Origin: Escherichia coli
Lineage (GTDB): Bacteria > Pseudomonadota > Gammaproteobacteria > Enterobacterales > Enterobacteriaceae
Strand: one strand, 5' to 3'
DNA length: 27,896 bases
Assembly: GCF_003334255.1 (NCBI RefSeq)
Contig: NZ_QOWU01000061.1
The position numbers were made by a program, and so were the translations under genes. The notes beneath the pieces are model-generated. The model was not told the DNA's origin and made no database searches. It worked only from the letters and a program-made list of their open reading frames with translations. Positions 21,835 through 22,296 of this stretch are shown here, piece by piece. Position 1 is the first letter of the stretch. Each line of letters opens with the position of its first letter.

Positions 21835-22100
21835 GACAAGCTCCTGCTTAAGGAATAGCTATTCGACGCCAGAAATAATGCAGGCGTAACGACAAAATGC
21901 AAACGAAAGGTGCGGCATAGAGTGCCAGAAAGGCAGGCGTTAAAAGGCCTGATGCTGAAATGACGTCGGTGACGATCCATACTGCGGGCTACTGCCCTAT
22001 ACTCCATGGTTGTTAAACGGGAGTTAAACATATCAGAGACGCCTCTGATTTGGCAAAGATTTACCTTCCTTTGCAAACGAATGTGACAAGGATATTTTAC

Positions 22101-22126
22101 CTTTCGAAATTTCTGCTAATCGAAAG
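22101..22126. promoter_or_regulatory. Palindrome CTTTCGAAATTTCTGCTAATCGAAAG, Mlc/NagC-like operator in the manX control region
   Basis: TTTCGAAA...TCGAAAG dyad; a TGTGA motif lies just upstream at 22082-22086; about 170-200 bp upstream of the manX start. Motif-level call only. Confidence 0.4.
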
Positions 22127-22157
22127 TTAAATTACGGATCTTCATCACATAAAATAA

Positions 22158-22188
22158 TTTTTTCGATATCTAAAATAAATCGCGAAAC
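22158..22188. promoter_or_regulatory. Second Mlc/NagC-like dyad TTTTCGATATCTAAAATAAATCGCGAAA near the manX promoter
   Basis: TTTCG...CGAAA inverted repeat in the AT-rich tract about 110-140 bp upstream of the manX GTG; a half-CRP-like TCACA at 22144-22148. Confidence 0.4.
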
Positions 22189-22296
22189 GCAGGGGTTTTT
22201 GGTTGTAGCCCTTATCTGAATCGATTCGATTGTGGACGACGATTCAAAAATACATCTGGCACGTTGAGGTGTTAACGATAATAAAGGAGGTAGCAA

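What the first reader, a model, noticed from the sequence alone, without database searches (positions are those of the whole stretch)
22080..22296. manX upstream region carries two TTTCG...CGAAA dyads (Mlc/NagC-type) and CRP-like half sites
Two distinct palindromes (22101-22126 and 22158-22188) with the TTTCG-N-CGAAA architecture typical of Mlc/NagC operators flank an AT-rich promoter-like tract, with TGTGA (22082-22086) and TCACA (22144-22148) pentamers nearby. This fits the known glucose/mannose PTS regulatory logic but the exact operator boundaries are my inference.
Basis: partly seen in the sequence, partly recalled or inferred. Interest (0 to 1): 0.25.

Follow-up and report, generated by a model that had tools for sequence, protein, structure and literature searches.

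The report
Known E. coli manX promoter operators

Summary
The window is E. coli chromosome and 22080-22296 is the yoaE/yoaL-manX intergenic region, identical in essentially all complete E. coli genomes. Its two "TTTCG...CGAAA dyads" are not the operators, though. NagC/Mlc operators are 23-bp sites with invariant TT/AA at -6,-5/+5,+6, equivalent to TTTCG-N5-CGAAA.

The real sites are 22091-22113 and 22157-22179. The first is the published NagC "man distal" operator, centred at -80. The second is the proximal, Mlc-type operator, centred at -14 and overlapping the -10 hexamer. Each reader dyad pairs one true half-site with an unrelated downstream CGAAA that is not conserved.

Of 77 other Enterobacteriaceae species, 77 keep the proximal operator and 57 keep a distal one 65-68 bp away.

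TCACA (22145-22149) is the good half of the CRP site, centred at -40.5 and nearly invariant. TGTGA (22082-22086) has no partner and is not conserved.

The parts
22091..22113 (.). Distal NagC/Mlc operator (centre 22102 = -80 from the start of transcription). It has G and C at positions -11 and +11, which is the NagC type.
   Evidence: Identical to the 'man distal' NagC site in Table 1 of PMC3098098 (located). It scores 15.1 bits with a matrix that leaves it out, in the top three of the window. TT/AA are at -6,-5/+5,+6. A site of at least 10 bits lies 65-68 bp upstream of the proximal operator in 57 of 77 orthologs.
22131..22152 (.). CRP site. The right half TCACA (22145-22149) is perfect; the left half ACGGA matches 2 of 5. 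The centre, 22141.5, is -40.5, the class II position.
   Evidence: The match has 3 mismatches, which alone is at chance level. The position follows from the start of transcription. The 22-mer ATTACGGATCTTCATCACATAA is identical in 35 of 78 sequences and differs by 1-2 bases in most of the rest. manX is a listed CRP target that was recovered by genomic SELEX (PMC3105977).
22157..22179 (.). Proximal Mlc/NagC operator ATTTTTTCGATATCTAAAATAAA (centre 22168 = -14). It has A and A at positions -11 and +11, which is the Mlc type, and it overlaps the -10 hexamer.
   Evidence: It scores 13.8-14.0 bits, 4th of 27,874 positions. The register is fixed by the matrix (centre 22167 scores only 3.3) and by the inverted-repeat alignment with the distal site (I1). 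It is present in 77 of 77 orthologs, with A or T at both outer positions. No text I could read gives its published footprint; that Mlc binds it rests on my recollection of Plumbridge 1998.
22171..22176 (+). -10 hexamer TAAAAT of the manX promoter. There is no good -35, as expected for a class II CRP-dependent promoter.
   Evidence: It lies 6 nt upstream of the inferred start of transcription and is invariant in the ortholog alignment. The simple sigma-70 scan found no promoter on this strand, which fits dependence on an activator.
22182..22182 (+). Start of manX transcription (inferred).
   Evidence: Two papers give the manX 5' UTR as 115 nt (PMC3089445; PMC5861419). The GTG start codon is at 22297.
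22216..22229 (.). Cra (FruR)-type palindrome CTGAATCGATTCGA in the 5' UTR, at +35 to +48.
   Evidence: It has 2 mismatches to CTGAAWCGWTTCAG and ties for the best match in the window. The published Cra motif is gcTGAAtCGaTTCAgc (PMC5888115). The core TGAATCGATTC is exact in 65 of 77 orthologs at a fixed offset. Salmonella Cra-His6 shifts a PmanX fragment, and fructose-1,6-bisphosphate relieves the shift (PMC10100716).
22252..22272 (+). Hairpin in the 5' UTR (ACAUCU / AGGUGU in E. coli), just upstream of the A/U-rich Hfq site and the ribosome binding site.
   Evidence: A hairpin forms at the same place in 62 distinct ortholog sequences, with many unrelated stem sequences. Mean z is -2.6 against shuffles, and 87% fall below -1 (also visible). 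RNAalifold on the MAFFT alignment found no pairs, because the stems are misaligned. No Rfam family matches.
22274..22290 (+). A/U-rich Hfq binding motif next to the Shine-Dalgarno sequence AGGAGG (22285-22290).
   Evidence: [quoted passage not shown] The block is invariant in the orthologs. The exact coordinates are my reading of the sequence.
22121..22125 (.). It is not part of any operator.
   Evidence: It lies outside the 23-bp distal site. Column identity is 40-70%. A dyad-1-like pattern is present in 9 of 77 orthologs.
22183..22187 (.). It is transcribed positions +2 to +6, not part of the operator.
   Evidence: It lies outside the 23-bp proximal site. The two arms are complementary in 15 of 77 orthologs, with no compensatory changes.
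22082..22086 (.). Lone TGTGA pentamer. It is not a CRP half-site.
   Evidence: No partner lies 6 bp away within 3 mismatches. Column identity is 10-60%. It is present in 9 of 77 orthologs.

Best explanation
The span is the promoter and leader of the E. coli manXYZ(-yobD) operon.

Transcription starts at 22182 from a promoter with a good -10 (TAAAAT) and no usable -35. It therefore depends on cAMP-CRP bound at -40.5 (22131-22152).

Two 23-bp operators of the NagC/Mlc (ROK-family) type repress it:
- The proximal one (22157-22179) covers -25 to -3, so a bound repressor excludes RNA polymerase. Its A/T outer positions make it an Mlc-type site. Mlc leaves the DNA when dephosphorylated PtsG sequesters it during glucose uptake.
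- The distal one (22091-22113, -80) has G/C outer positions, which is the NagC type. The two centres are 66 bp apart, about six helical turns. This allows cooperative binding or looping, as at nagE-nagB.

A Cra-type box at +35 to +48 probably adds a roadblock-type repression tied to glycolytic flux.

Shown here: the identity of the locus, the identity of the distal site with the published site, the matrix matches, the positions relative to the published UTR length, and the conservation.
Inferred or taken from the literature: which protein occupies which site, the looping, and Cra action in E. coli.

For: - Locus identity: 100% match in 5,423 of 5,426 complete E. coli genomes, between yoaE/yoaL and manX.
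- Start of transcription: taken from the 115-nt UTR.
- Distal site: identical to the published NagC 'man distal' operator.
- Operator definition: TT/AA at -6,-5/+5,+6, and the rule for the outer positions, come from PMC4288165.
- Significance: the two sites rank 3rd and 4th of 27,874 positions, and shuffles of the intergenic region never gave two such hits.
- Conservation: the proximal operator is in 77 of 77 orthologs, with A/T outer positions. The distal operator is in 57 of 77, at 65-68 bp. The CRP 22-mer is nearly invariant.
- Regulation in the literature: manX is repressed by Mlc and NagC and activated by CRP. The PtsG-Mlc sequestration mechanism is described in the text.
- Cra: the motif, its conservation and the Salmonella gel shift.
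Against: - I could not read the primary footprinting papers (Plumbridge & Kolb 1991; Plumbridge 1998; Plumbridge 2001), which are not held. The proximal operator's exact published coordinates, the -40.5 CRP assignment and the preference of Mlc for the proximal site therefore rest on inference and on my recollection.
- The CRP site is not distinguishable from chance by sequence alone: 92 matches at up to 3 mismatches against 99.6 expected.
- The distal operator is weak or absent in 20 of 77 orthologs, so looping cannot be essential everywhere.
- 66 bp is 6.3 turns at 10.5 bp per turn, which is not perfectly in phase.
- Cra binding in E. coli itself was not shown by anything I could read.
Confidence: 0.9

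Rival explanations
1. One reading: the functional operators are the long-spaced dyads TTTCG-N14-CGAAA (22102-22125) and TTTCG-N17-CGAAA (22161-22187), each bound by Mlc or NagC.
For: Both dyads exist. The pentamer is the true half-site motif of the family. TTTCG-N5-30-CGAAA is over-represented in the window, 8 against 1.64 expected.
Against: The family definition requires TT and AA nine bases apart within 23 bp; spacers of 14 and 17 violate it. The centres of the dyads score -9.6 to -20.7 bits. The published distal site has different boundaries. The arms are not conserved and do not covary (15 of 77 and 9 of 77). Six of the eight window matches lie in coding sequence.
Confidence: 0.03
2. The extended inverted repeat 22093-22107 / 22120-22134 (15-nt arms, 13 of 15 complementary) is the site of a further, unidentified regulator, or forms a cruciform. 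It would be specific to the Escherichia/Salmonella/Citrobacter group.
For: It is the second-longest inverted repeat in the intergenic region (I2). The right-arm core CGAAAG is kept in E. albertii, Salmonella and some Citrobacter.
Against: The left arm is simply the AT-rich left half and centre of the distal operator. The outer part of the right arm (TAAATTA) is the conserved flank of the CRP site. The central part is lost outside the closest relatives, and already in E. whittamii. AT-rich arms pair easily by chance. No known motif was matched.
Confidence: 0.04
3. The conserved palindrome at 22216-22229 acts as RNA rather than as a Cra operator: a stem between GAAUCG (22219-22224) and CGAUUC (22240-22245) in the manX leader.
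For: The minimum-free-energy fold of the leader pairs 22217-22223 with 22240-22246. The downstream CGATTC is fairly well conserved.
Against: The upstream element is invariant while the downstream partner varies (AGTCTC, CGGCTC, CGGTTC, TGATCT) with no compensating change. The whole-leader fold is no more stable than shuffles, z = -0.67. The sequence matches the Cra motif, and Salmonella Cra binds the PmanX fragment.
Confidence: 0.1

Closest known systems
E. coli K-12 manXYZ promoter as characterised by Plumbridge & Kolb (J Mol Biol 1991) and Plumbridge (Mol Microbiol 1998). These papers are cited but were not readable here.
   Same: It is the same locus, and at the one published site I could compare, the same sequence. 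The distal NagC operator string is identical. The 115-nt UTR, CRP activation, and repression by Mlc and NagC all agree with later papers.
   Different: Nothing differs as far as I can tell.
The nagE-nagB divergent control region: two NagC operators plus a CRP site, with repression by DNA looping.
   Same: It has two 23-bp NagC-type operators with a CRP site between or beside them. The half-site motif is the same and cooperative binding is expected. The nagE and nagB sites are in the training set that finds the manX sites.
   Different: At manX the proximal site has A/T outer positions (Mlc type) and the main repressor is reported to be Mlc. The spacing is 66 bp. Repression is reported as only about three-fold. 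Looping at manX was not tested here.
The ptsG promoter: an Mlc operator with CRP activation.
   Same: It has an Mlc-type operator with A/T at the outer positions in a CRP-dependent promoter of a glucose-transporting PTS gene. The induction route is the same, through sequestration of Mlc by PtsG.
   Different: manX has an additional NagC-type distal operator and therefore responds to amino sugars as well. I did not compare the ptsG sequence here.
Cra (FruR) operators, for example at fruBKA
   Same: The core matches 11 of 12 bases of TGAATCGATTCA. Its position downstream of the promoter suits a repressor. Salmonella Cra binds PmanX.
   Different: No evidence of binding in E. coli was found in the texts I could read. 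Nothing I could read places manX among the Cra ChIP-exo sites of PMC5888115: its supplement is not held and the literature search found no mention of manX in its main text.

Membership tests
NagC/Mlc (ROK repressor) operator | A 23-bp quasi-palindrome with TT at -6,-5 and AA at +5,+6 from the centre (PMC4288165) | tested here: met
   Met for 22091-22113 and 22157-22179. All nine training sites also meet it.
   The bases at -6,-5/+5,+6 are AA/AA, AA/AT and AT/AT. Matrix scores are -9.6, -19.2 and -20.7 bits.
NagC/Mlc (ROK repressor) operator | Similarity to experimentally defined operators, beyond chance | tested here: met
   With a leave-one-out matrix built from nine published NagC sites, the two sites rank 3rd and 4th of 27,874 positions (core scoring). 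Two such hits appeared in 0 of 5,000 shuffles of the intergenic region.
NagC/Mlc (ROK repressor) operator | Outer positions -11/+11: C/G marks a NagC-type site and A/T an Mlc-type site | tested here: met
   The distal site has G...C and the proximal site A...A. The proximal site has A/T in 77 of 77 orthologs. Among the 57 orthologs with a distal site, both outer positions are G or C in 26 and the rest are mixed or A/T.
NagC/Mlc (ROK repressor) operator | Protection by purified NagC or Mlc, and loss of repression when the site is mutated | not testable with these tools
   The distal site is listed as a known NagC operator. The proximal site's footprint is in papers that are not held.
NagC/Mlc (ROK repressor) operator | Conservation at orthologous promoters | tested here: met
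   Proximal 77 of 77; distal 57 of 77 at 65-68 bp spacing.
CRP (cAMP receptor protein) site | A 22-bp site with TGTGA-N6-TCACA | tested here: inconclusive
   22134-22149 has 3 of 10 core mismatches. There are 92 such matches in the window against 99.6 expected. The right half is perfect and the left half matches 2 of 5.
CRP (cAMP receptor protein) site | A centre at an activating position (-41.5/-40.5 for class II) | tested here: met
   The centre is 22141.5 and the start of transcription is 22182 (from the 115-nt UTR), which gives -40.5.
CRP (cAMP receptor protein) site | Conservation, and CRP dependence of the promoter | tested here: met
   The 22-mer is nearly invariant in 78 sequences. manX is a CRP target in SELEX and expression studies.
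CRP (cAMP receptor protein) site | The TGTGA-N6-TCACA feature, applied to TGTGA 22082-22086 | tested here: not met
   There is no partner within 3 mismatches. It is not conserved: 9 of 77 orthologs.
Cra (FruR) operator | Match to gcTGAAtCGaTTCAgc | tested here: met
   CTGAATCGATTCGA has 2 mismatches in 14 and ties for the best match in the window.
Cra (FruR) operator | Cra binding and Cra-dependent expression in E. coli | not testable with these tools
   Only the Salmonella gel shift and expression data were found.

The most novel reading that the evidence does not exclude
The downstream CGAAA pentamers (22121-22125 and 22183-22187), or the extended 15-nt inverted repeat 22093-22107/22120-22134, could be auxiliary contacts specific to the Escherichia/Salmonella/Citrobacter group. 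They would let an Mlc or NagC oligomer, or a further unknown factor, bind in an alternative register and so tune manX repression differently from other enterobacteria.
Probability: 0.03. Interest if true: 0.3.

Novelty: already known. Interest (0 to 1): 0.07.

Why it matters
It matters little for discovery. The manX promoter has been a textbook example of combined CRP, Mlc and NagC control since the 1990s, and the sequence here is the ordinary E. coli one.

The useful outcome is a correction. Loosely spaced dyads of the same pentamer should therefore not be called operators.

The comparative data add two small points. The 65-66 bp spacing between the two operators is conserved across many genera. 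A Cra-type box and a covarying hairpin in the leader are as well conserved as the classical sites.

Tried and rejected
- I tried to read the primary papers: Plumbridge 2001 NAR (by DOI and by PMC29661), El Qaidi & Plumbridge 2008 (PMC2446801) and the Deutscher 2006 review (PMC1698508). None is held.
- A full-text search for the proximal operator string found nothing. PMC4288165 does not mention manX, and its supplement is not held.
- The figure showing the Cra box in the Salmonella paper is an image without readable sequence. The supplement of the Cra ChIP-exo paper is not held.
- RNAalifold on a MAFFT alignment of the leader predicted no pairs because the variable stems were misaligned. I replaced it with per-sequence folding against shuffles.
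- The sigma-70 consensus scan did not find the manX promoter, as expected for an activator-dependent promoter. It did find a plausible divergent promoter for yoaL/yoaE.
- Rfam gave no hit in the intergenic region.
- I considered and rejected a second CRP site using TGTGA 22082-22086 (centre about -92.5). It has no partner half-site and is not conserved.
- I considered and rejected a third NagC-type site at 22109-22131. It scores 4.0 bits.

Full report
**Identity of the locus.** The 462-bp stretch 21835-22296 is 100% identical to the corresponding stretch of many complete E. coli genomes, and 5,423 of 5,426 genomes hold at least 80% of it. RefSeq annotation places it between yoaE/yoaL on the minus strand (yoaE 20272-21834, yoaL 21822-21980) and manX on the plus strand (GTG at 22297). 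manY, manZ, yobD and mntP follow. The finding therefore lies in the manXYZ promoter and leader.

**Checking the observation.** The sequence and the pattern search show TTTCG at 22102-22106 and CGAAA at 22121-22125, with a spacer of 14. They also show TTTCG at 22161-22165 and CGAAA at 22183-22187, with a spacer of 17. TGTGA is at 22082-22086. So the letters are there.

TTTCG-N5-30-CGAAA is more frequent in the window than in shuffles, 8 against 1.64. Six of the eight lie inside genes, so the pattern does not mark operators. Single TGTGA and TCACA pentamers are expected about 0.15 times each per 217 bp. These two are 63 bp apart and cannot form one CRP site.

**What defines a NagC/Mlc operator.** PMC4288165 describes the TT and AA at positions -6,-5 and +5,+6 from the centre of symmetry as absolutely conserved. 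C/G at positions -11 and +11 is typical of NagC sites, and A/T is typical of Mlc sites. PMC2806358 gives the NagC consensus as 23 bp long. PMC3098098 lists ten known NagC operators. One is 'man distal', GATATTTTACCTTTCGAAATTTC, which lies at 22091-22113 in the window.

I built a symmetrised matrix from the other nine sites. Its consensus is CTTATTTCGCGACGCGAAATAAG, that is TTTCG-N5-CGAAA.

**Matrix scan.** With the man site left out of the matrix and the outer positions ignored, 22091-22113 scores 15.1-15.2 bits and 22157-22179 (ATTTTTTCGATATCTAAAATAAA) scores 13.8-14.0 bits. These rank 3rd and 4th of 27,874 positions in the window. The other positions that score in this range lie inside genes: fadD (two sites), pdeD, and one at the very start of pabB.

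Shuffles of the intergenic region gave one hit as good as the proximal site in 1.6-3% of trials, and two such hits in 0-0.05%. The register of the proximal site is unambiguous: centre 22168 scores 13.8 and centre 22167 scores 3.3. It is also the register in which the two operators align as inverted copies of each other (I1).

For the distal site the real half is CGAAA at 22105-22109, which sits within the palindrome TTTCGAAA. For the proximal site it is TTTCG at 22161-22165.

**Positions relative to the promoter.** Two papers give the manX 5' UTR as 115 nt (PMC3089445; PMC5861419). That puts the start of transcription at 22182, six bases after TAAAAT (22171-22176). The proximal operator is then centred at -14 and covers -25 to -3. 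The distal operator is centred at -80.

The 22-bp frame around TCACA (22131-22152) is centred at -40.5, the class II CRP position. By sequence alone this CRP site is no better than chance: it has three core mismatches, and the window holds 92 such matches against 99.6 expected. The assignment rests on its position, on its conservation, and on the literature naming manX as a CRP target. No promoter on this strand passes a plain sigma-70 scan, which fits a promoter that needs an activator.

**Comparison with other species.** A ManX-based search of one genome per species returned 80 loci from Enterobacteriaceae. From these I obtained 77 distinct upstream sequences besides E. coli and aligned them.

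- The block 22128-22181, which holds the CRP site, the proximal operator and the -10, is almost invariant. The exceptions are the two central operator bases (22165-22166), the two outer operator positions (22157, 22179) and a few single positions around the CRP site.
- All 77 orthologs keep the proximal operator (10.3-15.9 bits), with A or T at both outer positions.
- Fifty-seven of 77 have a site of at least 10 bits whose centre lies 65 bp (34), 66 bp (18), 67 bp (2) or 68 bp (3) upstream of the proximal centre. The fixed spacing fits cooperative binding or looping.
- The outer positions of the distal site are G/C in the Escherichia, Salmonella and Citrobacter sequences shown. They are T/T in Klebsiella, Raoultella and some Kluyvera.
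Most species have TTTCA on the left and CGGAA, CGGTA or CTGTA on the right, with no compensation.
- A dyad-1-like pattern occurs in 9 of 77 orthologs, and TGTGA upstream of the distal operator in 9 of 77.

**How it most likely works.** cAMP-CRP at -40.5 activates a promoter that lacks a -35. Mlc bound to the proximal operator blocks RNA polymerase. When glucose is being transported, dephosphorylated PtsG sequesters Mlc and the promoter is freed (text). NagC recognises the distal G/C-type site and, more weakly, the proximal one. Repression by NagC and by Mlc is reported.

Three points come from my recollection of Plumbridge 1998 and earlier work, not from anything I could read here. These are that Mlc binds the proximal site with higher affinity than NagC, that both proteins can occupy both sites, and that NagC is released by GlcNAc-6-phosphate.

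**Other features inside the span.**
1. CTGAATCGATTCGA at 22216-22229 (+35 to +48) matches the Cra motif gcTGAAtCGaTTCAgc. Its core is exact in 65 of 77 orthologs at a fixed offset. In Salmonella, Cra-His6 shifts a PmanX fragment, fructose-1,6-bisphosphate relieves the shift, and Cra represses the operon. A conserved downstream CGATTC could pair with it in RNA, but it varies without compensation, which favours a protein-binding role.
2. A hairpin just upstream of the A/U-rich Hfq site and the ribosome binding site (E. coli 22252-22257 with 22267-22272) forms at the same place in 62 distinct ortholog sequences, with many unrelated stem sequences. Mean z is -2.6.
3. No Rfam family matches the region.

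**Verdict.** The region is the known manX control region and the sequence is the ordinary E. coli one. Novelty: already known. Interest: low.

Noticed in passing
window 22216-22229 (and CGATTCA at 22240-22246): There is a Cra/FruR-type palindrome in the manX 5' UTR at +35 to +48. It is as well conserved across Enterobacteriaceae as the CRP and Mlc sites: the core is exact in 65 of 77 orthologs. Salmonella Cra binds PmanX (PMC10100716). I found no readable evidence for E. coli.
   Followed up: partly
window 22250-22274: There is a hairpin in the manX leader just upstream of the Hfq site and the ribosome binding site. Its position is conserved and many different stem sequences occur across 62 distinct orthologs (mean z -2.6 against shuffles). 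No Rfam family matches it, and it was not among the passages returned from the manX sRNA/Hfq papers I searched.
   Followed up: partly
window 21981-22076: There are very strongly conserved blocks on the yoaL/yoaE side of the intergenic region. They include the dyad TTGGCAAAG-N10-CTTTGCAAA (22050-22077), which overlaps a minus-strand promoter-like site (TTGCCA-18-TATGTT with an extended -10 TG, 22056..22027). They also include a GGGC-TACT-GCCC stem (21986-21997) in the presumed yoaL leader. They probably hold the yoaL-yoaE promoter and leader. I know of no regulator for them.
   Followed up: no
window 21822-21980, minus strand: The small ORF yoaL (52 aa) is annotated upstream of yoaE and overlaps its start by 13 nt. 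This uORF-like arrangement precedes a gene annotated as a CNNM-family cation transporter.
   Followed up: no
window 8347-8369 and 8483-8505; 18778-18800: The best NagC-matrix hit of the whole window is CGTAATTCTCGTCGCAAAATTTT (18-19 bits). It lies in the 3' end of fadD, next to the sroD RNA (Rfam hit 8266-8351, minus strand), with a second hit 136 bp away. A further hit inside pdeD overlaps a one-mismatch CRP core, TGCGATTTATTTCACA (18773-18788). All three are inside genes, so they are probably chance matches, but this was not tested.
   Followed up: no
window 25710-25806 and 25505-25585: The Mn2+ (yybP-ykoY) riboswitch upstream of mntP scores 41.6 bits, just under Rfam's gathering score of 45, so a default scan misses it (E = 5.8e-10). 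A long palindrome right after yobD (25505-25585) gives spurious microRNA hits on both strands. It is probably a terminator or a REP-like element.
   Followed up: partly
L008, L012, L014, L016, L020-L022, L052, L073 (distal operator, about 65 bp upstream of the proximal one): In Klebsiella, Raoultella and some Kluyvera the distal manX operator is closer to consensus (TATTTTTTGCGCYGCRAAATWAT, up to 20 bits). It has T/T at the outer positions, not the G/C seen in E. coli. This suggests the distal site may be Mlc-type there and NagC-type in E. coli, Salmonella and Citrobacter.
   Followed up: no
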